NCBI GenBank assembly: GCA_049523215.1
Contig: JBEKNC010000002.1
Coordinates: forward strand, 127,963 to 191,962
Reading direction: 5' to 3'
From: Bacteroidota bacterium
GTDB lineage: Bacteria; Bacteroidota; Ignavibacteria; UBA10030
Length of the DNA stretch: 64,000 nucleotides
The position numbers and the translations under genes were made by a program. The notes under the pieces were generated by a model. The model ran no database searches and was not told the DNA's origin. It saw nothing but the letters and a program-made list of their open reading frames with translations. Shown in pieces: positions 4,630-22,063 of the stretch. Positions within the stretch are counted from its first letter, which is position 1. Each line of letters opens with the position of its first letter.

Positions 4630-5046
4630 AGAAAAAAGGTATCGTAATTTCGAAGGAAAGGCAAGGTTATACCTCTGGAAGGAATAACAGAAAAATATCT
4701 GGCACCTCCCCGCGGGCAAACCATAGAAGGTGTATGATATTTATGGGGTCTTGCGATTGAATGGAATACTCATTACCATTTTCGCAGGTGCTTGCCCGCC
4801 GAATACTTAGATTGTCGCCTACCTGCCCGCCAGACAAGCGTCGGGCTGGCCACAGAAAGGAAGGATGGCGGGATTCTTCTGCGTTTTGATATTGATATGG
4901 TACCAGGCATTTCGCTGTATAGGATTCCTGATGTTTGGTTTCAGTTACAAAGAATAAAAACGCAGTACTGCATTTTTACAAATGTTATGTGAAACATCTC
5001 TCGCATATATGATGACCGAACGAATCAATACCGTTGTGTATGCACC

Positions 5047-5844
5047 ATGAGTACAAAACCTAACTTTTCTCTGCGTAAGTGGTATCTCGACTGCGTCGCC
5101 GACAATGGTGATACATTTATCGGATATTCCGGGGCACTGCATTGGAAAGCATTGACAATTAATTACTCCAGCACCATAAGCACGCGCGGGAATTCGGGAA
5201 CGAGAACGAAAACATCATTACGAGAAGTTCTTTCCCCGCAGATAAGCGATCGACGAATTGACTGGTCGTCGAAGGCGTTGAACCTCGTCGGGACATGGGC
5301 GCTGATGTCCGAACCGATTCAACGACAATTGTATGATTCACCCGAAGGAACAGTGACGTGGTCGTGTGTACATCCTCGATCGAAGGCTGACATCTCATTG
5401 GGACCGAAAGAGCATATTGCAGGTCTTGGGTACGCGGAACTGCTGGAGCTCACCGTCAAACCGTGGCAATTACCCATTGCGGAATTACGATGGGGGAGAT
5501 TTCTTTCCGAGAGTGATGTATTGGTATGGATCGAGTGGCGGGGCGCCGCACCACTTTCAATCGTATTCCTCAACGGGAAGCAAATTCGGAATGCCTCTAT
5601 CAGCGATGAGCAAGTTGCAATCGATGAAGATCGGACCGTGCTCACTCTCACTGAGAAAACAGAATTGCGTAAAGGCGTTCTCGTATCAACCGCACTCTCT
5701 GCGATTCCAGGAATTGCAGCAATTGTTCCCGCCCGCATGCTTCACACCTACGAATGCAAATGGAGAAGCAGAGGTGTTCTATCCACAAACGGCTCTTTGT
5801 GCAGCTCCGGCTGGGTCATTCACGAAATTGTAAGGTTCCCATGA
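5047..5844 (+). CDS. hypothetical protein (possibly a CrtC/AttH-like hydratase-fold protein; not verified)
   Basis: 265-aa ORF with no signal peptide. Its stop overlaps the start of the next gene as ATGA, which suggests translational coupling. I do not recognise the family with confidence. Confidence 0.45.
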   Translation: MSTKPNFSLRKWYLDCVADNGDTFIGYSGALHWKALTINYSSTISTRGNSGTRTKTSLREVLSPQISDRRIDWSSKALNLVGTWALMSEPIQRQLYDSPEGTVTWSCVHPRSKADISLGPKEHIAGLGYAELLELTVKPWQLPIAELRWGRFLSESDVLVWIEWRGAAPLSIVFLNGKQIRNASISDEQVAIDEDRTVLTLTEKTELRKGVLVSTALSAIPGIAAIVPARMLHTYECKWRSRGVLSTNGSLCSSGWVIHEIVRFP

Positions 5845-7778
5845 CTATGACGCGCACTGCCCAAGCGGCTGGAAAGTTTTTATACGGATTCATGTTCGTC
5901 GTCATAATTCCGCCCCTTCTTTTTGTGTGGGCAAGATCGACTGAAGACGTCGTACACGTACCGATTGCCGGCTCTTTTTCACTCGGTGTTGCCTTCACGT
6001 TGATCGGCTTCGCTACAATGATAGCTGGGATGGTAACACTTTACCGTCTTGGGGGCGGACTTCCGATGAATGCTTATCCCCCGCCCAGATATGTAACTCG
6101 TGGAATCTATAAGCTCTTACCACATCCCATCTACGTTGGATTTTCACTCGCGTGTATAGGCATATCGATGGCGTGTCGATCATCGAGTGGCCTCTGGCTC
6201 GTCTCACCGATTGTTGCACTCGGTTGCTTGGCTCTTGTTCAAGGATTTGAGAAGCATGATCTTATTAGGCGGTTTGGTTCACCGTTGCCCAGGACACTGA
6301 TCAGCCTTCCCTCGGACGAATCTAGAGCTCCTCTCCCTTGGGAGCGGTTATCCGTTTATCTACTTGTATTACTCCCATGGCTTGTATTGTATGAGTCCGT
6401 CGTAGCATTCGGGATTTCTCCAGATGCAATGATTGCGTATTTCCCTTTCGAAAAGAATTTACCAGTGTACGAATGGACAGAGATATTCTATGGAAGCACA
6501 TATCTTTTTGTTTTCCTAGTTCCTCTTGTCGCCACTTCTGCACGCGATCTTCGAGAATTTGCTATTGCCGGAATTACAGCAACAGTTCTGATCACACTCC
6601 TCTTCCTGGTTATTCCTATTGTCTCACCACCGAGAGAGTTTGTACCTCAGAGCATTTTCGGATCAATCCTGATATGGGAACGTGCGCTTGATGCCCCGGT
6701 TGCAGCTTTCCCATCGTTCCACGTTATCTGGGCTTTCCTTGCGGCTCGTCTCTATTCAAGGGCGATTCCTTCGTCGAAGATACTCTGGTGGTCTCTAGCT
6801 CTATTGATTTCCGTAAGCTGTATAACCACGGGTATGCATGCCATGATCGATGTTCTTGCGGGGGCGCTTGTTGTTCCGCTGGTTCTCCATATCAGTGCAC
6901 TGTGGGAAAAGCTACGATCTCTAGCAGAACGCATTGCAAACTCTTGGAAGGAGTGGCAAATCGGCCGGGTACGCATCATCAATCACGGAGTGTATGCGGC
7001 TGCTGGAACTTCGATTGGACTATTGATCATTGGTACTCTTCTCGGGCCCGGATCGGTGAGTCCCATGTTGATAATCGCATTTTCCTCTCTCATCGCGGCG
7101 GCATTGTGGGCTCAGTTCATTGAGGGCTCTCCAAGTTTGCTGCGCCCATACGGATTCTACGGGGGAGTTATCGGGGTCATTCTTGGTTCACTGATTGCTA
7201 AACTATTCGGCGGTAATATCTGGCAACTGCTTGGGGCGTACGCTGTTGCAGGGCCGATCATTCAGTCTGCTGGCAGGTTTCGGTGTTTCGTGCAAGGCTG
7301 CTGCCATGGACGCGAAGCGTCCAAGAATATCGGAATACGATATACGCATCCCCGAAGCCGGGTGTGTCGTCTTGCCAATCTGAACAACGTTCCTATTCAC
7401 CCTACACCGCTCTATTCGATACTTTGGAATGTATTTACAGTAATAATTCTCGCTCGGCTCTGGTCTCTTCACGGCTCCCTCACCCTTATCGCTGGGTTGT
7501 ATCTAATTTTAAATGGCCTTGGAAGATTTGTTGAGGAAGCATATCGTGGCGAACCGCAGACGCCTATTATTGGGCGACTGCGTTTATACCAATGGATTGC
7601 GGTTGCTAGTGTAGTCTCCGGTGCTGTTCTCACAACAGTGAGTACATCTTCGGCTATACCGAACTGGCAATTTAGCTGGATCGCCGTTGGTGCTGCTGCA
7701 GGATTCGGTTCCTTGACATGGTTTGCACTTGGAGTGGATTTTCCAAATTCTAACACGCGGTTTGCCAGACTTGTCTGA
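5841..7778 (+). CDS. polytopic membrane protein fusing three domains: ICMT/PEMT-like methyltransferase, PAP2 phosphatase-like, Lgt-like diacylglyceryl-transferase-like
   Basis: The N-terminus carries the isoprenylcysteine/phospholipid methyltransferase motif (YVTRGIYKLLPHPIYVGFSL). The middle carries PAP2-like PSFH…GMHAMIDVLAG motifs. The C-terminus carries the Lgt-like GRFRCFVQGCCHG…HPTPLYS motifs. The whole protein is multi-TM. I chose the start at the MTMTRT methionine, because the longer ORF-track start overlaps the upstream gene. Confidence 0.65.
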   Translation: MTMTRTAQAAGKFLYGFMFVVIIPPLLFVWARSTEDVVHVPIAGSFSLGVAFTLIGFATMIAGMVTLYRLGGGLPMNAYPPPRYVTRGIYKLLPHPIYVGFSLACIGISMACRSSSGLWLVSPIVALGCLALVQGFEKHDLIRRFGSPLPRTLISLPSDESRAPLPWERLSVYLLVLLPWLVLYESVVAFGISPDAMIAYFPFEKNLPVYEWTEIFYGSTYLFVFLVPLVATSARDLREFAIAGITATVLITLLFLVIPIVSPPREFVPQSIFGSILIWERALDAPVAAFPSFHVIWAFLAARLYSRAIPSSKILWWSLALLISVSCITTGMHAMIDVLAGALVVPLVLHISALWEKLRSLAERIANSWKEWQIGRVRIINHGVYAAAGTSIGLLIIGTLLGPGSVSPMLIIAFSSLIAAALWAQFIEGSPSLLRPYGFYGGVIGVILGSLIAKLFGGNIWQLLGAYAVAGPIIQSAGRFRCFVQGCCHGREASKNIGIRYTHPRSRVCRLANLNNVPIHPTPLYSILWNVFTVIILARLWSLHGSLTLIAGLYLILNGLGRFVEEAYRGEPQTPIIGRLRLYQWIAVASVVSGAVLTTVSTSSAIPNWQFSWIAVGAAAGFGSLTWFALGVDFPNSNTRFARLV

Positions 7779-7811
7779 AGAAGAATGTGTCTATGAGATT
7801 AAGAGATGCTT

Positions 7812-7901
7812 CACATAACAAACAGCCTTACGACGCTCGCTCAAGCCGTTTGGCACAGAAGAAATTGAATTGTTCATAGCGCCAAACGGCACTGCGTAAG
7901 G
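7812..7901 (+). repeat. degenerate attC-like inverted-repeat element, left boundary of a lone cassette
   Basis: The 7-mer CATAAC…GCTCAAGCC…GCCGTTTGGC / GCCAAACGGC…CTGCGTAAGGC shares blocks with the attC-like family at 17.9 kb (GCATAACC…GCTCAAGC…GCAGCTTAGCGCC…ATTAGGC). Confidence 0.4.
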
Positions 7902-7962
7902 CTCCTGACATTATACGCAAGCAGAAGCAGGATTGCCCCATTAATTTACATGATTTTTTTTA

Positions 7963-9123
7963 ATGATGACCCCACAAAATATTAAAAATATAGCAGACCA
8001 ATTTGAAACTCCTTTATATATTTATGATGCTGATAATATTAAAGAAAATCTTTCAGCTATTTTAAAATATCTATATTATAAAAAATCTAGGGTTTATTTT
8101 GCAGTTATGTGCAATAACCAACTTGAAATTTTGAAAATTATAAAAAATTTAGGTTTAGGAGCTCAAGTAAATTCAGAATATGAATTAGAAATAGTGAAAA
8201 AAGCGGGGTTTAATTCTTCAGATATTTCATTTAGTTCTACTGGAATTAGCACGGAGTTAATGAGAAAACTTATTGAAGCAAACATAGAGGTTAACTTAGA
8301 TTCTGCCGAGGAAGTAGAAAAATTTTGTGCACTTACTAGGAATAAAACCTTTGGTATAAGAGTTAAGATTCCCAAAATTATTAAGATTCATTCTGACGAA
8401 GCCACCAATATTTTTTTAAATTCAAATATGGGAATTAATGAGAAAGATTTTTACAAAATAAAAACAACCGCTTTTAGGACGGGGAATAGAATTGTAGGTG
8501 TTCATGGATATTTCGCTTCTAATATTCTTAATACAAAGCCTTTTATTGAATTTGGAGACTTTTTAGCAAAGAAAGCAATTTCGTTTCCAGACTTGAAATA
8601 TATCAACTTTGGTAGCGGTTTTGGAGTGAGATATTTAGAAAAGGATAAAGATTTTAATTTTAAAAAAGTTCTGAATTATTACTCAACTCTAAGCGATGGA
8701 TTATCCAAGAAATTTCAGAGAGAAATAATTATCAAAATTGAACCAGGAAGATCTATTTTGGCAAGTTCTGGCACTTTATTAGTAAGGGTTACAAATATAA
8801 AAAAACTGAACCCTAAAAAATCGGAAATTTCTGTTAATGCTGGTTTTGCAGAACTTGCAAGACCGAGAACTTACAACTCTTATCACAAAATTGAAAATTT
8901 AGAAAAAACAGGGAGAATAAAAAGAGTTTATGACATAAGAGGAAATACCGTTCTGCAAAATGATTTTTTGGGACGAAATAGAATATTAGAAGACGTTAAG
9001 GAGGACGATTTTCTTCTGATAAAAAATGTTGGGGCTTATGGAAGTGTAATGGCTTCTGGATTCCCTGGAAAAAGACTTCCCAAGCAAATATTAATAAATA
9101 AAAATCAGATTAAAGAAATATAG
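7963..9123 (+). CDS. Orn/DAP/Arg decarboxylase-family (fold-type III PLP) homolog whose Schiff-base lysine is replaced by Met; likely a pseudoenzyme or divergent enzyme
   Basis: The family signature [FY]-[PA]-x-K-[SACV]-[NHC]… is matched by FAVMCNNQLEILKIIKNLG, except that K is M. The Gly-rich NFGSGFGV and the EPGRS motifs are present. The gene is strongly AT-rich relative to its flanks. Confidence 0.7.
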   Translation: MMTPQNIKNIADQFETPLYIYDADNIKENLSAILKYLYYKKSRVYFAVMCNNQLEILKIIKNLGLGAQVNSEYELEIVKKAGFNSSDISFSSTGISTELMRKLIEANIEVNLDSAEEVEKFCALTRNKTFGIRVKIPKIIKIHSDEATNIFLNSNMGINEKDFYKIKTTAFRTGNRIVGVHGYFASNILNTKPFIEFGDFLAKKAISFPDLKYINFGSGFGVRYLEKDKDFNFKKVLNYYSTLSDGLSKKFQREIIIKIEPGRSILASSGTLLVRVTNIKKLNPKKSEISVNAGFAELARPRTYNSYHKIENLEKTGRIKRVYDIRGNTVLQNDFLGRNRILEDVKEDDFLLIKNVGAYGSVMASGFPGKRLPKQILINKNQIKEI

Positions 9124-9139
9124 GACAATGCACTGCCGA

Positions 9140-9275
9140 CTTCTGACTGCGTATGACACGGCGTATCTGGCTACACTTTAGTCCAATCGAGACACTAATC
9201 TAATCAAGGATTCAAGACGTTCCGCGAATATTTGCCTTCGCTTCGGCAAACATCAGATACGCCGAAACGTTATGG
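9140..9275 (+). repeat. degenerate attC-like element, right boundary of the decarboxylase-like cassette
   Basis: Imperfect inverted repeat CGGCGTATCTG … CAGATACGCCG. It ends …CGCCGAAACGTTATGGGC, which resembles …GCGCCGATCCGTTAGGC of the attC family. Confidence 0.35.
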
Positions 9276-9495
9276 GCAATTGCCCGTGAAAAACAATTGA
9301 AGAATAGGCATCGAGAATGGAAAATCAATTTGATTAAATCTGTTAATCCGGAGATGAATAATTTGAGCGATGAAGTGCTTGGATAATGAATAGATTCTCT
9401 GCCTGCGACAGGCCTGCCTAAGTTCTTTGAACGTCGGCGAGCAGGCGAACAATCGACCGCGCAAGAATCGCTTGTTCACTCTGATAGCATTAGTA

Positions 9496-11759: not shown

Positions 11760-11775
11760 TGTTAAATTAAGCCAT

Positions 11776-11840
11776 TGTGTGATTGAGCGATTGAGTCAAT
11801 TCGTGATTTAGCGATTAAGTGATTTAGTGATTAAAGAAAT
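11776..11840. repeat. tandem 8-bp repeat array (GATTNAGY units)
   Basis: GATTGAGC GATTGAGT CAATTCGT GATTTAGC GATTAAGT GATTTAGT GATTAAAG. 8-bp periodicity. Confidence 0.8.
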
Positions 11841-11845
11841 AGTTT

Positions 11846-12205
11846 TCATCTCCTGCCGCGTGCGGTTTGATTGGACGCTGAAAAAATAGCAATCAATTCA
11901 TTCGCTTCTTTGAGTAATTCATTCGTCTTTTCTGGTGAAAGTATATTGAGATCTGTGACCATTTCAAGCCAAAACACAGTTTCATCAGCTTCTTCTACAA
12001 CAATACCAATTTTCGCTATGAACTCTGCTTTCGAACGGGCTCGGCAAACAGCCCGATAATTTGCAGCAACTGATGTTGCAGAACGCATCAATTGTCTTCC
12101 AATAATTCTGGCTTCTTCATTCTTTGGGAATGTTCGAACAAGTCTTACAATTTGAATTGCAAATTGCTTTGTTCGATCTCTTAATATTTCCGGCTGACTT
12201 TTCAT
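11846..12205 (-). CDS. four-helix-bundle protein (TIGR02436-like; the family historically annotated 23S rRNA-intervening-sequence protein)
   Basis: 119 aa carrying the characteristic …RQLMRSATSVAANYRAV…SKAEFIAKIGIVVEEADETVFWLEM… pattern. Confidence 0.8.
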   Translation of the reverse strand: MKSQPEILRDRTKQFAIQIVRLVRTFPKNEEARIIGRQLMRSATSVAANYRAVCRARSKAEFIAKIGIVVEEADETVFWLEMVTDLNILSPEKTNELLKEANELIAIFSASNQTARGRR

Positions 12206-12214
12206 AACGAATCA

Positions 12215-12300
12215 ATCACTCATTCTCACAATCACCCAATCACTTAATCACCCAATCACTTAATCATCCAATCTCTCAATCACATATTCACCCAATCTCC
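12215..12300. repeat. tandem 8-bp repeat array, inverted relative to 11776-11840
   Basis: AATCACTC ATTCTCAC AATCACCC AATCACTT AATCACCC AATCACTT AATCATCC AATCTCTC AATCACAT… is the reverse complement of GTGATTRRGT units. Confidence 0.8.
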
Positions 12301-12301: not shown

Positions 12302-15300
12302 TCATTCCTTTTTCCCAAGAACTGTCTTTACGCGATCAATTTCTTTCTGCGCTGCTGTCTTAAACTGCGAATCGGTGTCTTTTCGGCTGATGATTTGCTT
12401 GTACATCGTCATTGCCTGGTCATATTTCGACATCTTCTCGTACGATTGTCCAGCCATATAATATGCCGTTGAAATCCAATCCATTTTACCTCGTTTCGTA
12501 ACAAGATACGGAACTTTTAAAAATTCAAGAATTGCTTGTTGAAATTCCCCTTTATAAAAGTATGCCTCGCCAATATAGTACCGGAGTTCTGCTTCAAGAT
12601 CAATATTTCCTGCTTCTATTAAATCCTGCAAATGGAGAATTGACTGATCGTAGTATCCTAACTTCTGATACAACACGCCGATATCAATTTTCTTATCGAT
12701 GAGATCAGGATCGTTCGGGTAACGATCGATATACTTGCGTGTCAACTCCAGCGCACCATCATACAATTCCATTTCCTTGTATACCATAATCAAATTGCTC
12801 ATCGCTAACGGAACGAGACTGGGAGTGCGCTGTTCATTATCGAGAATGATACGATATTGTTTCGAAGCGGCATCCCATTGCTCAAGACTGTAATACGCGT
12901 TCCCCAAGCTCAAGTGTACACGCGGCAAAATCGGATCGTTAGGATAATATCTCAAAAGAGAATCATACATACGCACAGCAAGCGGCAATTTTTGATCCAA
13001 CTCATATACGCGAGCTGTCCAGAACATCGTTTCAGGAATAATAGGTGCTTTCGGATATGAATGAACAACCTGGTCAAACCGCTCTCGCGCTTTCGCAATG
13101 TCTTCTTTTCGCAGCTGGTATTTTCCCCGTTCGAATTCAAACTCTGCTTCATAATTATAAGTATGAGAATGTTCTTTTATAAAATCCGCCGCCCGTTTAT
13201 CTGCTTCTTTCACATTATCGAGCCGGAAGTAGGAGACAACGATTCGCGATTGTATGTATCGTTTTGCAGTGTCATTCTTTGTTTGCGAGAGTGCTTCGCT
13301 ATATCTTTTGACGGCATCGGCATATTGTTCATTCTGGAACAACATTTCCGCTGTCTCCAATGCCACGAACAAAGATTGCCCGCCTGATTTCCCTGCAATG
13401 CGGCTTACTTCCTGCAGATACTTCGCAGCGAGTTCGATAGAGTTTTCTGACTTTGCTATCGAGGCGAGCGCATAATATGCTTGTCCGGCTCTCGCCGTTG
13501 TTTGATCTCTTGTCACATATTCTGCATACCATTTCTTTGCTGCAGAAAAATCCATGAGTTTTTCGCTGCATACACCTAATTTAAAAATAATGGAACCTTC
13601 AATCTCCGGATCCACAGTTACAAAAAAGAAATCGGTTCGCAATCTTTCTAGACTATGCATATACCATTCATGTGCATTCTTAAAATCATTGGCAAAGAAA
13701 TACGCGTCAGCTTTGTACAGATCGAGACGCGATCTCAATGGATGATAGAAATACCGGGTCTCGAGAAGATCAAAATAGCCGAACGCTTTCGTCACTCGAC
13801 CGCTGTCTGCTGCAGTTTTGGCGAGATATGCAGCGGCGGCGGCACTTTTCACATGATTTGGATTTTTAGCAAGAAAATTATCAAGCACTTGAATTGCTGA
13901 ATCTTTCTCCATCATTCCATCGAGCGCAATGCCAAGCTGGTACTGCGCAGAGGGAGCTGTCTCGCGATCTGAATACTTTTCCAACAGAAGTTTATATGTG
14001 AGAACAGCGCTTTCATAATTTTTTGCTGTCAAATAAGAATCACCAAGCAAGAGAAGCGCTACATCTCTCCCGCGCGCACCGGAAGATTTCGACAAGAACT
14101 CCGTTCCAAGTGTCCGCACTTCTTCCGGCTTCTCTGCCAATTGCAGGCGGAGCGTGAATGCCGCGACAACCGCTTGGTCGGTAAGCTCGCCTGCCGGATA
14201 CAACACTGTAAGAGAATCGTATAAAACAATCGCCCTTGAAAGAAATTCTTTTTTCTTTGCGGTTTTTTCTCCTTCTTTCGATGCAAGCAGTTCAAACGAC
14301 TGCGCTTGTTTGAACCATGCCATCGGACGCAGGGTTTCTTCCAGATCGACTGTGAGAGCGTATGCAAACTGATCGGCGGCAAGCTGGTAATCTTTTATAT
14401 CGGAGAAATAGATTTCAGCAAGACGATAGGCAAGATTCCCTTTCGATTTCTGTGCGATGACATCTCCAACTAAAAGCGCAAGCTTCTGCGTGCTTGCATC
14501 CTTGCTGCGCAGATCAAAAGCCTTGATGAGACGAATCTGTTTTTGTGCTTCAGGAACAAACTCGCTGCTCGGATAGCGGCGCTGGAGATTTTCGAATGCT
14601 GCAATCGCTTCATCCATATTGCCGGCTTTCTTCCACGCTTCACCAAGCTTCATCGTCGCATCGTCAACCAATTCACTCGATGGAAAATGTTCAAGAAGCC
14701 ATTCGCAAAAATCGATCGCAGTCTTCGTATCGCCAACTTCGTCGTTGGCTACTGTAGCTCCTTCTAGTAAAAGTCTGGGCAGGTTGGCATCCGATGGATA
14801 CTGTTGACGGAATAGATTCGTTAACCGCACTGCTTCCGTGAAATTTTTTGTTGTAACAGCGCCCTTCATTGCACCGACAATAATTGCCCGACGATCCGCA
14901 TTGCCGACGCTATCGGTCAGAGCACGCGAATACAACTGCGCCGCTTTTACTGGATCGCCTGCGCGCTCGGCAGCAACGCCGGCTTTATAGAGCGCTTCCC
15001 CATTGCGAAGCCCGCGGATTTTTCCAGCTTTCTCGAACAACTCAAGCGCCCGTGCATTTAACTGCATGCGATTGTTCGCTTCCGCCATTTCCATATATGC
15101 ATCCTGCCGAAGCTGCTTGGGAGCTTTCAAACTGTCATCCGCTGCCGATTTCCAGGCTGCTAACGCTTCTTCTGTTTTACCGGCTGCATTTTTCAGAACA
15201 CCGAGTGTAAAGAGTGCATCGTAGTAGCTCGATGTCGATTTGAAATTCGTTGTAACTTCGGACACTGCCGTTTCTGCTTCAGTAATTTTTCCCATACCAA

Positions 15301-15952
15301 TAAGAGATTGTCCGTACAATACGAGCGCGCGGGCTTTCAACTGCGACTCTTTGGTCGCATCGATCACACGCTTGCTCTCCTGGCGGGCCTGTTCAAATTG
15401 TCCTGCGGATATTAATATCTCGGCAAGTTTATTTCTTGCCGGCAGCACTTCATCGGTCGTGTATTCCTGCGTGAGTGTCCGTAAAACACGAAGTGTATTT
15501 TCTGTATCCTTCAGCCGACCGTAGTACTCGGCAGCTTTGAGAAGTGCAACCGGGGCAAATTTACTGCTCGGGTGAAACGTTTTCACACGTTCAAACGCCA
15601 TTGCCGCTTCGCGGTCATTCTTCATCGCGGCATATTCCTCTGCAACGTTCATCCACGCTTCCGGCGCTTTCATATTATCGGTATACGCCAGAGCGAAATT
15701 CTGGAATGTATAGCGGGCGTCGTCGTGCTTGCCGAGCTTGGATTGTGTTAAGCCGAGATAAAAACGCGCTTCAATTCCCTGCGCACTGCTCGGGTAGAGA
15801 TTGATGAATGTGCGGAACTGTTCCAGCGCAAGATCGTACATCTTGTCGTTATAGAGATTGACGGCAAGCTTAAAATCGCCATTCTCTTTGGCATCCTGCG
15901 CAAAGGCGATGCAAGAGAACAAAAATAAAATGGAGAGAAGTTTGACTTTCAT
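12302..15952 (-). CDS. large secreted tetratricopeptide-repeat (TPR) protein
   Basis: 1216 aa with an N-terminal signal peptide (MKVKLLSILFLFSCIAFAQ) and dozens of TPR-like A/Y/L-rich helical repeats. Confidence 0.85.
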   Translation of the reverse strand: MKVKLLSILFLFSCIAFAQDAKENGDFKLAVNLYNDKMYDLALEQFRTFINLYPSSAQGIEARFYLGLTQSKLGKHDDARYTFQNFALAYTDNMKAPEAWMNVAEEYAAMKNDREAAMAFERVKTFHPSSKFAPVALLKAAEYYGRLKDTENTLRVLRTLTQEYTTDEVLPARNKLAEILISAGQFEQARQESKRVIDATKESQLKARALVLYGQSLIGMGKITEAETAVSEVTTNFKSTSSYYDALFTLGVLKNAAGKTEEALAAWKSAADDSLKAPKQLRQDAYMEMAEANNRMQLNARALELFEKAGKIRGLRNGEALYKAGVAAERAGDPVKAAQLYSRALTDSVGNADRRAIIVGAMKGAVTTKNFTEAVRLTNLFRQQYPSDANLPRLLLEGATVANDEVGDTKTAIDFCEWLLEHFPSSELVDDATMKLGEAWKKAGNMDEAIAAFENLQRRYPSSEFVPEAQKQIRLIKAFDLRSKDASTQKLALLVGDVIAQKSKGNLAYRLAEIYFSDIKDYQLAADQFAYALTVDLEETLRPMAWFKQAQSFELLASKEGEKTAKKKEFLSRAIVLYDSLTVLYPAGELTDQAVVAAFTLRLQLAEKPEEVRTLGTEFLSKSSGARGRDVALLLLGDSYLTAKNYESAVLTYKLLLEKYSDRETAPSAQYQLGIALDGMMEKDSAIQVLDNFLAKNPNHVKSAAAAAYLAKTAADSGRVTKAFGYFDLLETRYFYHPLRSRLDLYKADAYFFANDFKNAHEWYMHSLERLRTDFFFVTVDPEIEGSIIFKLGVCSEKLMDFSAAKKWYAEYVTRDQTTARAGQAYYALASIAKSENSIELAAKYLQEVSRIAGKSGGQSLFVALETAEMLFQNEQYADAVKRYSEALSQTKNDTAKRYIQSRIVVSYFRLDNVKEADKRAADFIKEHSHTYNYEAEFEFERGKYQLRKEDIAKARERFDQVVHSYPKAPIIPETMFWTARVYELDQKLPLAVRMYDSLLRYYPNDPILPRVHLSLGNAYYSLEQWDAASKQYRIILDNEQRTPSLVPLAMSNLIMVYKEMELYDGALELTRKYIDRYPNDPDLIDKKIDIGVLYQKLGYYDQSILHLQDLIEAGNIDLEAELRYYIGEAYFYKGEFQQAILEFLKVPYLVTKRGKMDWISTAYYMAGQSYEKMSKYDQAMTMYKQIISRKDTDSQFKTAAQKEIDRVKTVLGKKE

Positions 15953-15989: not shown

Positions 15990-16075
15990 GAAAGTGAAGA
16001 TAGGAGATTAAGAGATTTGGTGATTGGGTGATTAAGTGATTGGGTGATTGAATGATTGAGAGATGTTGAGAGATA
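15990..16075. repeat. tandem 8-bp repeat array (GTGATTRRG units), third copy
   Basis: GATTAAGA GATTTGGT GATTGGGT GATTAAGT GATTGGGT GATTGAAT GATTGAGA GATGTTGA GAGATAGG. It has the same orientation as 11776-11840 and is inverted relative to 12215-12300. Confidence 0.8.
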
Positions 16076-16853
16076 GGGAAAAAAAATTGAGAGAAAGTGC
16101 TGGAAGAAAAAAAAGAAGGCTTGATTAGCTATGACCCCATCAGTCCCCAGAGGTCGTTTTGCGCGTTCGCATATAAAAATAGACACACGCTTTGTGTGTG
16201 TTTGTAATGGGCCTCCGGCTGCCCTGATAGAAAAGATTCCATGAGGAATCAACGTCATTCCGGCGTGATTCTAGTCGGAATCCAGGGTCTAGATAACCTA
16301 CAACCAATATTTGTTATTTGAGTTAACGCCGCTTTCTTTTGGCGAAAAGAAAGCGACAGAAAGAAACGCTTGTGAAATCGAAATGTGTTTTCTCAAGGTT
16401 GAACTAAGATTGGGGATATGATAAACTCATTGTTAGAAATATAATGTACGGAAGGATTGGAATACACCTTGTCTTGACCCGTCTTTCTTCTATCGATTTC
16501 GCGGCTTAGAGATAAGAATATGAAAAACACGGCGGATAGAGAACTCCTGACTCCACTTGGCCTCCACCTTCTTGACAATGCACTCAAGAAAAACCATATT
16601 GTTCCTGTTCCCGGATTACCAAAGCGCTTAATAGTTATTACCTGTGTATTTTTATGACGTATGCTGAAGAAATAACATTTGAGATGAAGAGAAATATCAT
16701 TCGACTTTTCATGCGTAATAGTCGCAAAAAGCCGACTCAGTCTCACGAAGTTTCCAAAGGAATCCCTTTGGGAGATGCCTTTGGCAGACCTAATCACAGG
16801 TTAGGCGCATAAAAACGTTACACTATTAAATGTAGATGAATATGGAATGAAAT

Positions 16854-17939
16854 ATGAGACTGTACTCAACACCGCTGTCAGCTTCAAGATTGGAAATCAC
16901 GAAGCTTGCAATTATTGAAACAGTATTATCGCTTTCTATCTATTCATTCATTGTCCTGTATTTTGGAAGTCTTAAATACCTTGTAGTTATTATCGTTTTA
17001 GCTCCTCTTACACTATTCCGGACTGATAGTTCTTCAGAATGGGCCATTGATAAATTTAAACTCATTCTTGAAAATCTAAATAAATGGGTTTTTAATTCTT
17101 GGAATGGGAAAGCAATAATTTATCGAGTTCTGCTTGCATTTATTCTTTGGCCTTTATTTGGTGTAAGTCTGCGGGTTGTTTCGACTATTTATTTTTTTAT
17201 TAAGAATCCAATATCTGTAATTGTTGAAATGCCTCGGAACTGGATGCGACAGTGCATTTGTACAGATTTTATGCATCCACCAGAAATATTGCCAATGGAA
17301 TGTGTTAAATCTAGTATAGATAAAAATGTACATTCATTTTATACTTGGAAAAAAGGCCTTATTGATGCGCGTTATTCTGTAAAGTTTGGACTCTTAATAT
17401 TTACTTTACCTTTTTGGATTATTGGATGGATACCTTCTTTATTCTATCGTATTTCATTCAAAGCGACATCTATTGTATATCTACCCTTTATCTGGGTTGC
17501 AAATCTCACCATGCAAAATCCATTACCAGTCAAAAAACGACTTGAGAGATTTACTCAGGGAGAACTGGAAAAGGTTCGTCGTGGCTACTCTTGGATTATT
17601 ATAGTCATGTTACTTTCAAAGATTGGTTTTATATTAGGGTATATTGATATTAATTTCATAACCCAAAAATATTTAAATGAGAGAATTGTAAATACTATTA
17701 TTGTTCCAAATAGTTGGGCATCTTGGCAGATAACATTAGGAATAGACGCATTGTTAACATTCTTTCTACTCTTCTTTACTGATTCAGCACTTGCAAGACT
17801 TGATCATAAACCTTTTTTTAAAGAAGAAACGATATTAAATACTGTTTCATTTATCTCATTTATTAGAGCTGCAATCAGTATTTTTACTATTTCAATATTC
17901 TTTTTTTATGCTCTCAATTTGTTTTTTTTAAAGCAATGA
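16854..17939 (+). CDS. hypothetical polytopic membrane protein (cassette cargo)
   Basis: 361 aa with at least 8 hydrophobic helices. Very AT-rich. Followed 6 bp later by an attC-like element. Confidence 0.6.
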   Translation: MRLYSTPLSASRLEITKLAIIETVLSLSIYSFIVLYFGSLKYLVVIIVLAPLTLFRTDSSSEWAIDKFKLILENLNKWVFNSWNGKAIIYRVLLAFILWPLFGVSLRVVSTIYFFIKNPISVIVEMPRNWMRQCICTDFMHPPEILPMECVKSSIDKNVHSFYTWKKGLIDARYSVKFGLLIFTLPFWIIGWIPSLFYRISFKATSIVYLPFIWVANLTMQNPLPVKKRLERFTQGELEKVRRGYSWIIIVMLLSKIGFILGYIDINFITQKYLNERIVNTIIVPNSWASWQITLGIDALLTFFLLFFTDSALARLDHKPFFKEETILNTVSFISFIRAAISIFTISIFFFYALNLFFLKQ

Positions 17940-17944
17940 AATGT

Positions 17945-18103
17945 GCGCATAACCCGCGGCTCAAGCTGACCGGATGAGCGTTAGTGCATTTTACATTGCG
18001 CGTAGAGGTTTAGTACAGAATTGAAAGTGAAGTGAATGAACTTGGTTCGTTCCGTGCAATTTGAAAGTTCACATTGTCGCAGCTTAGCGCCGGTCCATTA
18101 GGC
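17945..18103 (+). repeat. attC-like site (long variant of the family, reverse-complement orientation relative to array II)
   Basis: GCGCATAACCCGCGGCTCAAGCTGACC … GAACTTGGTTCGTT … GCAATTTGAAAGTT … CGCAGCTTAGCGCCGGTCCATTAGGC. Near-identical to the reverse complement of the 55-61 kb elements. Confidence 0.7.
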
Positions 18104-18132
18104 GGTTGCCAAAATTAATAAGGATTACACAG

Positions 18133-19032
18133 ATGTCAAATAATATTGCGTCTCTCTCTGAATCGACCTTCAGATCAAATATTCGCCACACTGGTTTGCC
18201 AAGCTGTAATATTGATATTAGAACGTTGAAAAAGTTATTTGGTAAATTGAACGAGTGTTGTCGCGAGGCAGCCACAATTGAATTGTCAAAATTACGCCAA
18301 GGCACAATGACTACAGAGCAATACGAAAAATTCAAGAATGATGTAGCCGAATCATATAAAATTAATGTAGAGATACTTGGGAAAAAAGGGGAATACTTTT
18401 CATCAACCTCAGAATCCTTGCTTGATGAAAATGTTTTACCAAGTCAATTAGTAAGACTTACTTTCAATAGTGAATTCCTTTTTAAGACAGCATTCAATGC
18501 CGTTCCAATGAACAGCGTAAAAATCATTATTGATTTTAATAAAGCCACAGTACTTGATTTTTCCTCAAACCCTTCACACCCGACATCCAATGATAGTGTT
18601 ATTGACGTTCTTGGCCAGACAGAATCTTGGGTGGATGGAGTTTATAAGGCTGTGAATGATATTCTTAAAGAATGTAGTACGCATCGAACTTGGTTGCACA
18701 GGAGAGGAATATATGATTTATTTCTATGGTTATTTATTATTCCTCTTTCCTTCTGGAATCTTCATAAATTAGTCTTAGGGTTCCCCACTTTCTTTAATGC
18801 AATTTCCGGTGTAATTCAAGTATTTGTCTCAATCTATTTTCTACTTCTCATTATTTTACTTTATAGAGCATTCTTCAGTTATGCTCGCTGGGTTTTTCCT
18901 TATATCGAACTTAGTTCTACTTCAAAGACTACATCGACCAGGCATAGAATATTTTTTACCGGATTAACACTAACATTGACTTATGGATTGTTGAAAGATT
19001 TAATAAAGAGAATTATTGAAATTATATTTTAA
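18133..19032 (+). CDS. hypothetical protein with C-terminal transmembrane helices (cassette cargo)
   Basis: The ORF-track reading frame opens with TTG at 18106. I used the first ATG (MSNNIASL…), 30 nt after the attC core. The C-terminus has two hydrophobic helices. AT-rich. Confidence 0.55.
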   Translation: MSNNIASLSESTFRSNIRHTGLPSCNIDIRTLKKLFGKLNECCREAATIELSKLRQGTMTTEQYEKFKNDVAESYKINVEILGKKGEYFSSTSESLLDENVLPSQLVRLTFNSEFLFKTAFNAVPMNSVKIIIDFNKATVLDFSSNPSHPTSNDSVIDVLGQTESWVDGVYKAVNDILKECSTHRTWLHRRGIYDLFLWLFIIPLSFWNLHKLVLGFPTFFNAISGVIQVFVSIYFLLLIILLYRAFFSYARWVFPYIELSSTSKTTSTRHRIFFTGLTLTLTYGLLKDLIKRIIEIIF

Positions 19033-19044
19033 TGTATAGCAACT

Positions 19045-19128
19045 GCCTAACTAGGCGCTCCCGCCCAACAAGACAGCGGGGCAGGCAAGCTCGGCTTGTC
19101 CAGAAGGCGAAGCGGCCATCCGTTAGGC
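19045..19128 (+). repeat. attC-like site (short variant)
   Basis: GCCTAAC TAG GCGCTCCCGCC…GGCGGG…CAAGCTCGGCTTGT…GCGGCCATCC GTTAGGC. The termini are perfect 7-bp inverted repeats. Confidence 0.7.
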
Positions 19129-19169
19129 AGCCCTAAAAGTGGGATATCAATCAATAAAGGTGTCGTATT

Positions 19170-19448
19170 ATGATTTTCACACTCATCTATTTTTTCTTCA
19201 TCGTCTGGATAACTATTGTACTGTCTAAATCTATCAAGATAGTGCGAGAGGATCAGCGAGTTGTGATTTTTCGTTTGGGAAAGTATTTTGGTGTTGGTGG
19301 CCCAGGAATAGTTTTTATTTTACCATTTGTAGATAAAATACAAAAGGTCGATCTAAACGAGTCTTTACCAGGATGGCAAACATTACCCAAAGAACTTCTT
19401 GAAGAAAGACTGAAATCACTTGTCATCTATAAGTCAAACAGTTTTTAA
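19170..19448 (+). pseudogene. SPFH/band-7 (stomatin/HflC-like) domain protein, N-terminal fragment only
   Basis: 92 aa: TM helix followed by IVREDQRVVIFRLGKYFGVGGPGIVFILPFVDKIQKVDL, which is the start of an SPFH domain. The sequence terminates long before the domain would end. Confidence 0.5.
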
Positions 19449-19454
19449 CGGGCT

Positions 19455-19700
19455 GCCTAACCAGGCGCTCCCCGCTAATCCCGTAAAAAACACGGGACGC
19501 AAAAAACGCGAAAGCGACGGGGTTTCGCATAAAGCGCTCAACAAGCTCGGCTTGTCTGGAAGAATGCATCACAGCCGGAGCCCTGAGAATGTATCGCGCA
19601 AAGCGCGAAACAATTTCTTAAAAGTGATACAATATTTCTCAATGAGCCCACTGCAATTTACATGGCGCGCATAGGTTTAGTACAGAGAAGTTACAGACTG
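19455..19700 (+). repeat. attC-like site, rearranged or truncated
   Basis: It begins GCCTAAC CAG GCGCTCC and contains CAAGCTCGGCTTGT and the CATTTACATGGCGCGCATAGGTTTAGTACAGA block shared with the element at 17945-18103. It lacks the terminal …GTTAGGC. Confidence 0.5.
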
Positions 19701-19777
19701 GATTTAATATTGCCACAAAAAATTCTTATAAAATAAATATGCAATTGCCTAAAATATTTTAACGAAAGGATATTAAG

Positions 19778-21088: not shown

Positions 21089-21103
21089 TAAACTGCAATT
21101 GCG

Positions 21104-21194
21104 GCTGACCAGGCGCTCCCGCCTAAAAGACGGCGGGCAAGCAAGCTCGGCTTGTATAGAAGAATGCATCACGCGAGGCGGTCATGTGTTAGGC
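21104..21194 (+). repeat. attC-like site (short variant, left core degenerate GCTGAC)
   Basis: GGCTGACC AG GCGCTCCCGCC…GGCGGGCAAGCAAGCTCGGCTTGT…GGTCATGT GTTAGGC. Highly similar to the site at 19045-19128. Confidence 0.6.
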
Positions 21195-21247
21195 GGGCAG
21201 AAAAAAACTACAATTTTATCAAATATAAATTAAAAGCGAGAGGACTT

Positions 21248-21952
21248 ATGAAAGCTACACTCTATTGCTGTATGATTCTATTTATGTTTTCATGTGCCGT
21301 AAAGGCGCAGGATAGTACAAGTAATGTAAAAATAGATTCCGTGCTTTATTATCAAAAGAAGATGTTAAGTCAACAAGAAAAACTTTACAATGAAGTAGTA
21401 CGTTATAAAGAACCGCTGGAGAATAAAAAATTTGGTATCGAGATCAATCCGGCATATATGCTGTTCAGCAGTGCCCGTTCATATTTTGTGTTCAGCGGAG
21501 GATTTTCATTCTTCGATATAGACCGACACGCAGAAATTGCATGTCCAATTTTTTATCAGAACGGAGCCGGTAAAAACTCAGGAGTTCATGAATTGACGCT
21601 GTGGAATCAAGATATAGTATATCGGAAATTTTTGGGACAGCATCAGGACGGATTTTACCTTGAGGGGGGCTTACGATATACGCACATCAAAGGAGAATCT
21701 AACGATGGTGTTTCCATACTGGGAGTAAGTTTATTTTCAACATCTCCTACGTCAATAATAACCACGGATAAGCTGGGAGGGATGTTTGGCATCGGGTACA
21801 GGTATTTTTCGACATCAGGATTTTATTGGGGAACAAGTCTCGTGGTAGGGGCGTATTTTTCTGCTGATGAAAGAACAATACAAGGGATAATATTGGATGA
21901 TACAAAAACCATTTTTGATTTTGAAATACTGAAATTTGGTTATGCGTTCTAA
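21248..21952 (+). CDS. outer-membrane beta-barrel protein (cassette cargo)
   Basis: Signal peptide MKATLYCCMILFMFSCAVKAQ. Alternating amphipathic strands. C-terminal …FGYAF with a terminal Phe, typical of OMP barrels. Confidence 0.6.
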   Translation: MKATLYCCMILFMFSCAVKAQDSTSNVKIDSVLYYQKKMLSQQEKLYNEVVRYKEPLENKKFGIEINPAYMLFSSARSYFVFSGGFSFFDIDRHAEIACPIFYQNGAGKNSGVHELTLWNQDIVYRKFLGQHQDGFYLEGGLRYTHIKGESNDGVSILGVSLFSTSPTSIITTDKLGGMFGIGYRYFSTSGFYWGTSLVVGAYFSADERTIQGIILDDTKTIFDFEILKFGYAF

Positions 21953-21957
21953 CTGCG

Positions 21958-22023: not shown

Positions 22024-22063
22024 GATCCGAAAACTGACCTGCATTCAAAAACAGGAAGATAAA

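What the first reader, a model, noticed from the sequence alone, without database searches (positions are those of the whole stretch)
7812..9275. Lone AT-rich cassette-like unit encoding a PLP-decarboxylase homolog that lacks the Schiff-base lysine
Seen in sequence: the 386-aa ORF matches the Orn/DAP/Arg decarboxylase family-2 signature position by position (FAVMCNNQLEILKIIKNLG against [FY]-[PA]-x-K-[SACV]-[NHC]-x4-[LIVMF]-[LIVMTA]…). The one exception is that the PLP-binding Lys is Met. The Gly-rich loop and EPGR motif are retained, but the C-terminal Cys/Glu catalytic motif also looks altered (…GNTVLQNDF…). The gene is far more AT-rich than its neighbours. It is flanked by two degenerate inverted-repeat elements (7812-7901; 9140-9275) that share blocks with the attC family (GCTCAAGC; …CGCCGAAAC GTTATGG). 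Established knowledge: the lysine forms the internal aldimine with PLP, and its loss abolishes normal catalysis. Eukaryotic antizyme inhibitor is a known pseudoenzyme derived from ornithine decarboxylase in this way. Inference: a horizontally acquired, possibly decayed single cassette that carries a pseudo-decarboxylase.
Basis: partly seen in the sequence, partly recalled or inferred. Interest (0 to 1): 0.7.

Follow-up and report, generated by a model that had tools for sequence, protein, structure and literature searches.

The report
Conserved lysine-less decarboxylase-like gene, imported
An intact, recently imported gene encodes a diaminopimelate-decarboxylase-like protein without the cofactor-binding lysine; it belongs to a large, conserved and apparently uncharacterised lysine-less branch of that enzyme family, so it is probably a re-tooled working protein and not a decayed integron cassette.

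Summary
The protein observation holds. ORF 7963-9123 (386 aa) has the Orn/DAP/Arg-decarboxylase fold, with Met49 where the PLP lysine should be. The stacking His is Tyr and the Cys-Glu pair is Val-Leu. The Gly loop, EPGR, GAY and the distal-carboxylate Arg/Tyr are kept. GC is 29% against 47-49% for neighbours. The Met is not isolated decay: 105 of the 260 closest full-length sequences scored at that column lack the lysine and share a Met/Tyr/Phe signature. The gene is not contextless. In at least 10 Bacteroidota loci it is linked, in three gene orders, to the two genes upstream of it here: an AttH/CrtC-fold protein and a PEMT-PAP2-LGT membrane enzyme. In DPANN, CPR and cyanobacterial loci it is fused or adjacent to a ProC-like reductase and a class IV aminotransferase. 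Horizontal acquisition is supported by composition and by a 68% versus 32-43% identity discordance with its operon partners. The attC resemblance of the flanks is at background level. Best reading: a functional, non-canonical B6-binding protein recruited to a lipid-processing operon. Its chemistry is unknown. I propose decarboxylation-dependent transamination; a non-catalytic ligand-binding role is the main rival.

The parts
4983..5001 (+). Left copy of the 17-19 bp inverted repeat (TTATGTGAAACATCTCT) that brackets the A265-B643 unit
   Evidence: there are two exact copies of ATGTGAARCATCTCT in the window, and 0 of 100 shuffles reach the observed count. The same bracket is present in L035. Homology between the window and L035 starts at 4984.
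5047..5844 (+). A265: a 265-aa protein with the AttH/CrtC-type double beta-barrel fold, and a conserved partner of the system
5847..7778 (+). B643: a polytopic membrane protein with PEMT/ICMT-like, PAP2 and LGT-like domains. The true start is probably Met32 of the 5754 ORF.
   Evidence: Pfam: LGT 4.4e-23, PAP2_3 2e-15, PEMT 7e-7. It is a full-length homolog (37-40% identity, E about 1e-148) of the gene next to the Lys-less gene in L009 and L010. The NCBI model is 643 aa.
7802..7820 (-).
   Evidence: Homology between the window and L035 ends at 7820.
7825..7899 (.). 75-nt imperfect hairpin (GCCTTAC...GCCGTTTGGC...GCCAAACGGC...GTAAGGC) with host-like GC; its nature is unknown
   Evidence: DNA fold z -2.8 on the + strand and -2.7 on the - strand. 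It does not score as an attC of this genome. There is no Rfam match. It is not repeated elsewhere in the window or in the loci.
7939..9129 (.). Compositionally foreign AT-rich segment: the ORF plus 24 nt of leader and 6 nt of tail
   Evidence: Maximum-likelihood two-boundary change-point fit; sliding GC profile.
7963..9123 (+). Lys-less DAP-decarboxylase-fold protein of 386 aa. Changed: Met49, Gln68, Tyr183, Val330-Leu331, Phe367. Kept: R133, S186, G217/G219, E260, R263, R300, Y304, D334, Y359.
   Evidence: The model has pLDDT 89, and Foldseek gives TM 0.80-0.88 to DAP decarboxylases.
9159..9264 (.). 11-bp perfect inverted repeat (CGGCGTATCTG / CAGATACGCCG) separated by 84 nt, in a flank with host-like GC; significance doubtful
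   Evidence: The fold of 9130-9279 gives z -0.6 and -0.8. There is no attC half-site hit.

Best explanation
The ORF is an intact, horizontally acquired member of an old, conserved, lysine-less lineage of diaminopimelate-decarboxylase-fold (fold-type III) proteins. It is not a decayed enzyme. In that lineage the five reactive residues of the catalytic centre are replaced by unreactive ones: Lys to Met, the Asp partner to Gln, the stacking His to Tyr, and Cys-Glu to Val-Leu. The residues that anchor the vitamin-B6 phosphate and pyridine nitrogen are kept, as are those that hold a distal carboxylate. So the protein most likely still binds PLP or PMP non-covalently, together with an amino-acid-like ligand.

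In this genome it was inserted directly downstream of a resident two-gene lipid-processing unit: an AttH/CrtC-fold protein and a PEMT-PAP2-LGT membrane enzyme. It is genetically linked to the same unit in many Bacteroidota. It therefore acts as an accessory that makes or modifies an amine-type head group or precursor for that system.

Proposed chemistry (inference, not shown): there is no Schiff-base lysine and no C-alpha proton donor. The substrate amine would condense with free PLP and lose CO2, and the carbanion would be protonated at C4'. This is decarboxylation-dependent transamination. It would release an aldehyde or cyclic imine plus exchangeable PMP. The ProC-like reductases and class IV aminotransferases linked to it in other lineages could then reduce the imine and recycle the PMP, respectively.

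Shown: family membership, the conserved substitutions, the two conserved gene contexts, and the horizontal acquisition. Inferred: cofactor binding, catalytic competence, and the reaction.
For: Conservation. Met49 is invariant in the 35-sequence family alignment, along with Y183, N187, L331, Q332, D334, E260-R263, R300, Y304, Y359 and the SGFPG motif. Of the 260 nearest full-length sequences scored at that column, 105 lack the lysine, with Met at 91%, Tyr183 at 98% and Phe367 at 100%. The cofactor and substrate anchors (R133, G217, G219, E260, R300, Y304, D334, Y359) are at least 85% conserved in both the Lys-less and canonical groups. These map onto the ODC residues listed as PLP-stabilising in PMC5518511.

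Fold. The model is confident and matches DAP decarboxylases.

Context 1. The gene is linked to A265, B643 and often an ABC-2 exporter in at least 10 distinct Bacteroidota loci. Three gene orders occur, including a tight operon with overlapping stops and starts.

Context 2. The partner is a ProC-like reductase (fused in Moorena; overlapping in L028 and L034), with or without a class IV aminotransferase, in 8 distinct loci. A prolyl-tRNA synthetase is adjacent in L022. All these homologs carry Met, except L028.

Fusions. Sister Lys-less subfamilies include fusions to a polyamine aminopropyltransferase and to an N-methyltransferase-like domain.

Intermediate. The L028 homolog keeps Lys and His but has lost Cys-Glu.

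Horizontal transfer. GC is 29% against 49%, and GC3 is 21% against 46%. The segment is bounded at 7939-9129. The DC-like protein is 68% identical to those of L014, L015 and L019, while A265 and B643 are only 32-43% identical to any other operon.

Chemistry precedent. The C387S variant of D-Orn/D-Lys decarboxylase was solved with PMP and 4-guanidinobutanal (PDB 9cpz, listed). Decarboxylation-dependent transamination is defined in PMC7497351.
Against: There is no biochemical evidence of any kind. Replacing every reactive residue with an inert one is also what a non-catalytic binding protein would look like. Polyamine pathways are known (from my own knowledge) for pseudoenzyme regulators. The A265-B643 core usually occurs without any decarboxylase-like gene, so the coupling is facultative. 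The two contexts share no obvious common metabolite. In decarboxylation-dependent transamination, PLP is consumed stoichiometrically, and no natural enzyme of this fold is known to me to work that way. Cofactor binding is inferred from sequence only, because the tools return no model coordinates to inspect. My literature search covered open-access text only.
Confidence: 0.55

Rival explanations
1. It is a non-catalytic pseudoenzyme. The protein keeps the fold and a ligand pocket (B6 vitamer and/or amino acid). It acts as a sensor, chaperone, scaffold or regulator of partner enzymes: B643, ProC-like reductases, or aminopropyltransferases. This would resemble antizyme inhibitor or the trypanosomatid prozymes.
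For: All five reactive catalytic residues are replaced by unreactive ones. There is no relocated lysine. A fusion to an aminopropyltransferase could be a regulatory domain. The gene is facultative next to the A-B core.
Against: The replaced positions are themselves almost invariant (Met 91%, Tyr 98%, Phe 100%), and the cofactor anchors are fully kept. That argues for a precise pocket and not a relaxed one. The gene is retained in the very small genomes of DPANN and CPR organisms, in tight operons with metabolic enzymes. An intermediate keeps Lys and His but has lost Cys-Glu, which suggests stepwise change of chemistry and not inactivation.
Confidence: 0.25
2. One reading: a lone, decayed integron cassette carrying a dead decarboxylase gene, flanked by degenerate attC sites.
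For: The genome has two attC arrays within 64 kb, and some of their cassettes are AT-rich (GC 32-34%) between GC-rich attC sites. The foreign segment is cut very tightly around the ORF. The spacing of a hairpin 63 nt upstream and an inverted repeat 27 nt downstream resembles cassette geometry. The hairpin ends, GCCTTAC/GTAAGGC, differ from GCCTAAC/GTTAGGC by one compensated change.
Against: Half-site HMMs and matrices place both flanks at background, while all true sites score strongly. The invariant AAC/GTT triplets are broken. The long stem has no extrahelical bases. The flank 2 fold is not significant. Part of 'flank 1' belongs to the inverted repeat that brackets the upstream unit. No attC-like structure lies next to 26 homologs. 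The ORF is full length and carries every family-invariant residue, so it is not decayed. No integrase was found at the array borders tested.
Confidence: 0.1
3. It is an ordinary PLP decarboxylase that uses a different lysine for the Schiff base.
For: In the query's own subfamily, Lys258 (two residues before Glu260) and Lys370 (in SGFPGK) are conserved.
Against: Those lysines are present in only about 62% of the Lys-less clade. The only clade-wide lysine, K280, is equally conserved in canonical enzymes. The C-alpha proton donor Cys and its Glu/Asp partner are also gone. The score is below the LysA equivalog cutoff, 236.7 against 297.9 bits.
Confidence: 0.04
4. It is a native gene with aberrant composition and was not acquired horizontally.
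For: It sits exactly where the ortholog sits in other Bacteroidota, directly downstream of B643.
Against: There is a 20-point GC gap and a 25-point GC3 gap to the adjacent operon partner, with sharp boundaries. Protein identity is discordant, 68% against 32-43%. The closest relatives of the A-B unit, at 86% and 79% nucleotide identity, have other genes in that slot.
Confidence: 0.04

Closest known systems
meso-Diaminopimelate decarboxylase (LysA; Orn/DAP/Arg decarboxylase family 2, alanine-racemase fold)
   Same: It is the best sequence and structure neighbour: 2p3e at 3e-41, profile at 3.6e-64, TM 0.80-0.88. Both Pfam domains are present. The Gly loop, EPGR, GAY, the RPxxY distal-carboxylate pair and the final Asp of the CE(S/T)GD motif are all kept.
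   Different: There is no Schiff-base Lys (Met instead), no stacking His (Tyr), no Cys-Glu (Val-Leu), the Asp partner is Gln, and Tyr367 is Phe. The score is below the LysA equivalog cutoff. The genomic context is unrelated to lysine biosynthesis.
Antizyme inhibitor and other ODC-like pseudoenzymes (eukaryotic)
   Same: They are homologs of the same fold that lack decarboxylase activity. AZIN1 chains are distant hits of the family profile, at 3e-15.
   Different: From my own knowledge, AZIN does not bind PLP and works by binding antizyme; I did not verify this. Here the PLP-anchoring residues are fully conserved, the clade is prokaryotic, and no antizyme is involved.
Decarboxylation-dependent transamination, as in active-site Cys variants of ODC-fold enzymes and in dialkylglycine decarboxylase
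   Same: This is the chemistry I propose. Loss of the C-alpha proton donor diverts the quinonoid to C4' protonation, giving PMP plus an aldehyde. Evidence: PDB 9cpz title and PMC7497351.
   Different: Those cases are engineered variants or side reactions, or, for dialkylglycine decarboxylase (from my own knowledge), a fold-type I enzyme that keeps its lysine. A natural Lys-less fold-type III lineage doing this has not been shown.
PMP-dependent sugar dehydratases ColD and E1 (fold-type I; lysine replaced by histidine). This comparison rests on my own knowledge.
   Same: They are natural vitamin-B6 enzymes that have lost the Schiff-base lysine and use the cofactor without an internal aldimine.
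   Different: They have a different fold, different substrates (4-keto sugars) and a different replacement residue. They were not tested here.
Integron gene cassettes and attC sites
   Same: The ORF is AT-rich and cut tightly, it lies between structured GC-richer elements, and the genome has real attC arrays.
   Different: The flanks fail the attC family tests. The gene is 8.8 kb from the nearest array. Its homologs are operon genes and not cassettes.
YggS/PLPBP ('proline synthase co-transcribed' PLP-binding protein). This comparison rests on my own knowledge.
   Same: It is a fold-type III B6-binding protein without known catalysis that is classically co-transcribed with proC. The ProC linkage seen here is similar.
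   Different: YggS is a single-domain barrel that keeps its lysine. There is no sequence relationship beyond the fold. It was not tested here.

Membership tests
Orn/DAP/Arg decarboxylase family 2 (PF02784 + PF00278; fold-type III) | Both Pfam domains score above the gathering threshold | tested here: met
   PF02784 scores 91.1 bits (cutoff 23.4). PF00278 scores 52.1 bits (cutoff 23).
Orn/DAP/Arg decarboxylase family 2 (PF02784 + PF00278; fold-type III) | TIM-barrel plus beta-sandwich fold | tested here: met
   The AlphaFold model has pLDDT 89.4. Foldseek gives TM 0.80-0.88 to DAP decarboxylases.
Orn/DAP/Arg decarboxylase family 2 (PF02784 + PF00278; fold-type III) | Schiff-base lysine in the [FY]-[PA]-x-K-[SACV]-[NHC] signature | tested here: not met
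   The site reads F-A-V-M-C-N. Met49 aligns with the Lys of 2p3e, 2yxx and 1tuf and with the Lys of 155 canonical homologs.
Orn/DAP/Arg decarboxylase family 2 (PF02784 + PF00278; fold-type III) | Catalytic Cys followed by Glu/Asp (C-E/D-x-x-D), and the PLP-stacking His | tested here: not met
   Val330-Leu331 replace Cys-Glu, and Tyr183 replaces His. The final Asp334 is kept.
Orn/DAP/Arg decarboxylase family 2 (PF02784 + PF00278; fold-type III) | Cofactor phosphate and pyridine-N anchors (Gly-rich loop, E-P-G-R, G-A-Y, and Arg equivalent to ODC R154) | tested here: met
   G217-S-G219, E260-P-G-R263, G357-A-Y359 and R133 are all at least 85% conserved in both the Lys-less and canonical groups. 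The residue roles are taken from PMC5518511.
LysA equivalog (TIGR01048) | Score at or above the curated cutoff | tested here: not met
   236.7 bits against a cutoff of 297.9.
   The window protein has M49, Y183 and F367. The signature is held by 105 of the 260 nearest full-length sequences scored at that column.
Integron cassette / attC recombination site | R'' (RYYYAAC) and R' (GTTRRRY) boxes with the invariant AAC/GTT | tested here: not met
   Flank 1 has GCCTTAC / GTAAGGC, so both triplets are broken. Flank 2 has GTATGAC / GTTATGG, which are only 4 of 7 complementary (read directly).
Integron cassette / attC recombination site | Similarity to the attC family of the same genome | tested here: not met
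   With nhmmer half-site HMMs, the true sites score E <= 0.016, flank 1 scores E = 41, and flank 2 has no hit. With ungapped matrices, flank 1 scores 3.1 bits against at least 54 bits. A stem-only covariance model was uninformative because its positive controls failed.
Integron cassette / attC recombination site | Folded bottom strand with an L''/L' stem carrying extrahelical bases | tested here: not met
   The inner stem of flank 1 is a perfect 10 bp with no bulged base, next to a 13 nt against 5 nt internal loop. The flank 2 fold is not significant.
Integron cassette / attC recombination site | Position inside an attC array or next to intI/attI | tested here: not met
   The nearest array starts about 8.8 kb away, at 17947. 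No Phage_integrase domain was found in the ORFs tested at the array borders.
Antizyme-inhibitor-type pseudoenzyme | Loss of cofactor binding, and function through binding a regulator (antizyme) | not testable with these tools
   The sequence keeps all PLP anchors, which argues against loss of binding. Actual binding can only be measured experimentally.

The most novel reading that the evidence does not exclude
The Lys-less clade is a natural family of vitamin-B6 enzymes that use PLP as an exchangeable co-substrate and not as a covalently tethered cofactor. It would catalyse decarboxylation-dependent transamination of a diamino or dicarboxylic amino acid, such as a DAP-, lysine- or ornithine-like compound, to give an aldehyde or cyclic imine plus PMP. 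ProC-like reductases would reduce the imine to a cyclic amine or imino acid of the proline or pipecolate type. Class IV aminotransferases would recycle the PMP. In Bacteroidota the product would feed an uncharacterised lipid head-group pathway built from the AttH/CrtC-fold protein, the PEMT-PAP2-LGT enzyme and an ABC-2 exporter.
Probability: 0.2. Interest if true: 0.85.

Novelty: new variant of a known kind. Interest (0 to 1): 0.6.

Why it matters
The Schiff-base lysine is treated as the defining residue of PLP enzymes, and automated annotation calls these proteins 'diaminopimelate decarboxylase'. This work shows that a large, conserved branch of the family has replaced that lysine and four other catalytic residues. 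The branch is widespread in Bacteroidota, Ignavibacteriae, cyanobacteria, CPR bacteria and DPANN archaea. It keeps the cofactor pocket and has two reproducible gene partnerships.

This matters in three ways. First, it flags a systematic mis-annotation that would distort lysine-pathway reconstructions, especially for the reduced genomes of CPR and DPANN organisms. Second, it defines a tractable target for finding a new B6-dependent reaction or a new type of bacterial pseudoenzyme. Third, it points to a widespread uncharacterised lipid-processing gene pair (more than 2,000 homologs of B643) whose product is unknown. Cultured carriers (Labilibacter sediminis, Carboxylicivirga, Moorena) make it directly testable.

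Tried and rejected
1. A covariance model built from the stems of ten real attC sites could not span the 84-225 nt loops. Its own positive controls scored only 7-13 bits, so I discarded the test and used half-site profile HMMs instead.

2. A generic attC scan (R boxes plus pairing) around 26 homologous loci found only chance hits inside ORFs.

3. Rfam found nothing in the flanks at either the gathering or the E-value threshold. Rfam also did not report the real attC sites, so it has no usable attC model.

4. The sigma-70 promoter and intrinsic terminator scans found fewer sites than shuffled sequence, which says little for a Bacteroidota genome.

5. Six literature searches for a described Lys-less fold-type III decarboxylase homolog, or for the A265/B643 system, returned nothing relevant. 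Two papers opened on the chance of a mention had none.

6. I first read the end of window/L035 homology at 7820 as the insertion border of the decarboxylase-like gene. I withdrew this after finding that the homology block is bracketed on both sides by a conserved inverted repeat. It marks the edge of the A-B unit, not of the insertion.

7. The idea that a 'decarboxylase slot' follows B643, prompted by a PanD-like gene in L038, did not generalise. Five other A-B loci have unrelated genes there.

8. A search for remnants of other slot occupants, ProC, a class IV aminotransferase or ABC-2 genes in the window found none.

9. I looked for a relocated lysine and found none conserved across the clade.
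Full report
THE OBSERVATION

The ORF is real: 7963..9123 on the + strand, 386 aa. It is identical to a protein annotated 'hypothetical' in an NCBI Bacteroidota MAG on a 382-kb contig. It hits both Pfam domains of the Orn/DAP/Arg decarboxylase family (PF02784 9.6e-26; PF00278 8e-14). It falls below the curated LysA cutoff, 236.7 against 297.9 bits.

Residue-by-residue alignments to three solved DAP decarboxylases pair FAVMCNN with YAVKAN and GNTVLQNDF with GPICETGDF. So the Schiff-base Lys is Met49 (codon 8107-8109), and the Cys-Glu pair is Val330-Leu331. A 92-sequence alignment gives the same columns. The PLP-stacking His of HxHxGSQ is Tyr183, the Asp equivalent to ODC Asp88 is Gln68, and Tyr367 is Phe.

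GSGFG, EPGR, GAYG, Arg133, Arg300/Tyr304 and Asp334 are retained. These correspond to the ODC residues that PMC5518511 lists as stabilising PLP or contributing to the dimer. An AlphaFold model built on a 35-sequence alignment is confident (pLDDT 89). It superposes on DAP decarboxylases at TM 0.80-0.88.

The gene has GC 29.3% and GC3 21%. The gene immediately upstream has 49.4% and 46%. A two-boundary likelihood fit places the AT-rich segment at 7939-9129, which is the ORF plus 24 nt upstream and 6 nt downstream.

IS THE MET AN ISOLATED DECAY?

No. About 65 database proteins at 40-72% identity all carry A-x-M-(C/A)-N. They also carry HGY(L/F)ASN and GNTVLQ(N/S)D. Met49, Tyr183, Leu331, Gln332, Asp334 and the C-terminal SGFPG motif are invariant in a 35-sequence family alignment.

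An exhaustive HMMER scan of 1.84 billion cluster representatives extends this. Of the 260 nearest full-length sequences scored at that column, 105 lack the lysine. They have Met (91%), Phe or Val instead, with Tyr at the His position (98%) and Phe at position 367 (100%). The cofactor and substrate anchors are at least 85% conserved in both groups. No lysine is conserved in the Lys-less group that is not equally conserved in canonical enzymes, so a relocated Schiff-base lysine is unlikely.

One member, L028 from a Nanoarchaeia MAG, keeps Lys and His but has already lost Cys-Glu. It looks like an intermediate state. Neither Pfam nor NCBIfam has a dedicated model for this clade. No solved structure belongs to it. 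Six full-text searches found no description of it.

CONTEXT

The gene is not contextless. The two ORFs upstream of it recur next to its homologs.

- B643 (5847-7778) combines PEMT/ICMT-like, PAP2 and LGT-like domains.
- Full-length homologs of both lie beside the Lys-less gene in Labilibacter sediminis, two Carboxylicivirga species and several Bacteroidota MAGs. That is at least 10 distinct loci.
- Three arrangements occur: A-(ABC-2 exporter)-B-DC, DC-A-ABC-ABC-B with overlapping stops and starts, and a divergent layout.
- Linkage that survives rearrangement indicates functional coupling.
- The coupling is facultative. The A-B core is far more widespread, with more than 2,000 B643 homologs, and it usually has other genes downstream.

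A second, unrelated module appears in DPANN archaea, CPR bacteria, cyanobacteria and some metagenomic contigs. There the Lys-less gene is fused to a ProC-like pyrroline-5-carboxylate reductase (Moorena) or overlaps one. A class IV aminotransferase often lies alongside. This module occurs in 8 distinct loci, and prolyl-tRNA synthetase is adjacent in a Woesearchaeota contig. All of these homologs carry Met, except L028. Sister Lys-less subfamilies include fusions to a near-equivalog polyamine aminopropyltransferase and to an N-methyltransferase-like domain.

HORIZONTAL ACQUISITION

Three lines of evidence agree.

- Composition, given above.
- Discordant identity. For A265 and B643 the window is an equidistant outgroup, 32-43% identical to every other operon. 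Its DC-like protein is 68% identical to those of L014, L015 and L019, which are 70-76% identical to each other. L019 shows the same discordance.
- A variable slot. The closest relatives of the A-B unit, at 86% and 79% nucleotide identity, have different genes in the slot after B643.

So a DC-like gene from a low-GC Bacteroidia- or Flavobacteriia-like donor was placed next to a resident A-B pair.

THE CASSETTE IDEA

The window does contain two attC arrays, at about 17.9-24.1 kb and 54.3-61.1 kb. Their consensus is clear (GCCTAACCAGGCGCTC...GCTTAGCGCCgaTCCGTTAGGC), and some of their cassettes are AT-rich.

The flanks of this ORF nevertheless fail the tests. Ungapped matrices rank flank 1 33rd at 3.1 bits, against at least 54 bits for true sites. 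Gapped half-site HMMs give E = 41 for flank 1 and nothing for flank 2, while all true sites score E <= 0.016. The AAC/GTT triplets are broken, and the long stem has no extrahelical bases.

Flank 1 does contain a real 75-nt hairpin at 7825-7899 (z -2.8). The fold of flank 2 is not significant.

The 'CACATAAC' at 7812-7819 is part of a 17-19 bp inverted repeat, (T)TATGTGAA(A/G)CATCTCT. This repeat brackets the A-B unit at 4983-5001 and 7802-7820. It is conserved at both ends of the unit in L035, exactly where inter-genome homology stops. It therefore belongs to the upstream unit and not to a cassette.

No attC-like structure flanks any of 26 homologous loci. No integrase domain was found in the ORFs tested at the array borders. 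A cassette origin for the insertion is not excluded, but nothing tested supports it.

HOW IT MOST LIKELY WORKS

Shown: the family, its signature, its two contexts, and the horizontal transfer.

Inferred: the phosphate cup, the pyridine-N Glu and the distal-carboxylate Arg/Tyr are all kept, and the replaced positions are themselves nearly invariant. From this I infer that the pocket still binds a B6 vitamer and an amino-acid-like ligand. The partner genes all handle amines, imines or amino acids (reductase, aminotransferase, aminopropyltransferase, N-methyltransferases).

The Schiff-base lysine and the C-alpha proton donor are both missing. The simplest chemistry left to an external aldimine formed from free PLP is decarboxylation followed by protonation at C4'. 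That yields an aldehyde or cyclic imine plus PMP. The reaction is defined in PMC7497351. It is seen in this fold when the Cys is removed (PDB 9cpz, listed). A ProC-like enzyme could reduce the imine, and a transaminase could regenerate PLP. I give this specific mechanism about 0.2, and a catalytically active non-canonical B6 enzyme of some kind about 0.5.

The main rival, at about 0.25, is a non-catalytic ligand-binding subunit. The decayed-cassette reading gets about 0.1.

VERDICT

It is a new variant of a known kind, within a mis-annotated and apparently uncharacterised clade. It is testable in cultured organisms.

Noticed in passing
window 16790-24080 (+ orientation) and 54339-61134 (- orientation): There are two clusters of long (84-225 nt) attC sites with the consensus GCCTAACCAGGCGCTC...GCTTAGCGCCgaTCCGTTAGGC. 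At least 6 and 7 sites respectively separate mostly unannotatable ORFs, some of them AT-rich. No Phage_integrase domain was found in the ORFs tested at their borders, so within this window they look like integrase-less attC clusters in opposite orientations.
   Followed up: partly
window 4983-5001 and 7802-7820; L035 6147-6160 and 8963-8976: A 17-19 bp inverted repeat, (T)TATGTGAA(A/G)CATCTCT, brackets the A265-B643 gene pair in the window and in its closest relative. Nucleotide homology of 86% between the two genomes stops at the outer edges of the repeats. This could be the ends of a mobile two-gene module or a pair of operator sites.
   Followed up: partly
window 5047-7778; loci L035-L038, L067-L069: The A265 (AttH/CrtC-fold) and B643 (PEMT-PAP2-LGT) pair, often with an ABC-2 exporter between them, is very widespread. 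It occurs in Bacteroidota, Ignavibacteriales, Acidobacteria and Thermodesulfovibrionales, with more than 2,000 B643 homologs. It appears to be an uncharacterised lipid-processing system in its own right.
   Followed up: partly
window 11765-11843, 12197-12297 and 15990-16084: Arrays of 8-nt tandem repeats (GATTnAGn) occur at three places. The second and third are 69-nt inverted copies (80% complementary) flanking the 1216-aa TPR ORF at 12302-15952. The first and second flank a 23S-rRNA-intervening-sequence-protein gene at 11846-12205.
   Followed up: no
L028 8001-9122: A Nanoarchaeia homolog (48% identical) keeps the Schiff-base Lys and the stacking His, but has lost Cys-Glu and carries the family's ASGFPGK motif. 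It overlaps a ProC-like gene. It may represent an evolutionary intermediate.
   Followed up: partly
L038 9055-9894: In one relative, the slot directly after B643 holds a 280-aa Asp_decarbox (PanD-like, pyruvoyl-type) protein. This is an unrelated decarboxylase family in the position that the Lys-less gene occupies in the window. It was seen only once.
   Followed up: partly
L016 8001-9149: A homolog (64% identical) in a 23%-GC MAG is broken into short ORFs under translation table 11, although tblastn aligns it over its full length. That organism probably uses an alternative genetic code.
   Followed up: no
L017 87-3285: In a Pacearchaeota contig the Lys-less gene sits between genes resembling the alpha and beta subunits of pyruvate:ferredoxin oxidoreductase, with overlapping stops and starts. 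This is a third, unexplained context.
   Followed up: no
L005 8568-9800 and 10001-11989: In Moorena the ProC-DC fusion gene is also compositionally foreign (GC 32% against 42-44%; GC3 18%). It lies directly downstream of an IS605-family TnpB/OrfB gene, which suggests another independent acquisition.
   Followed up: no
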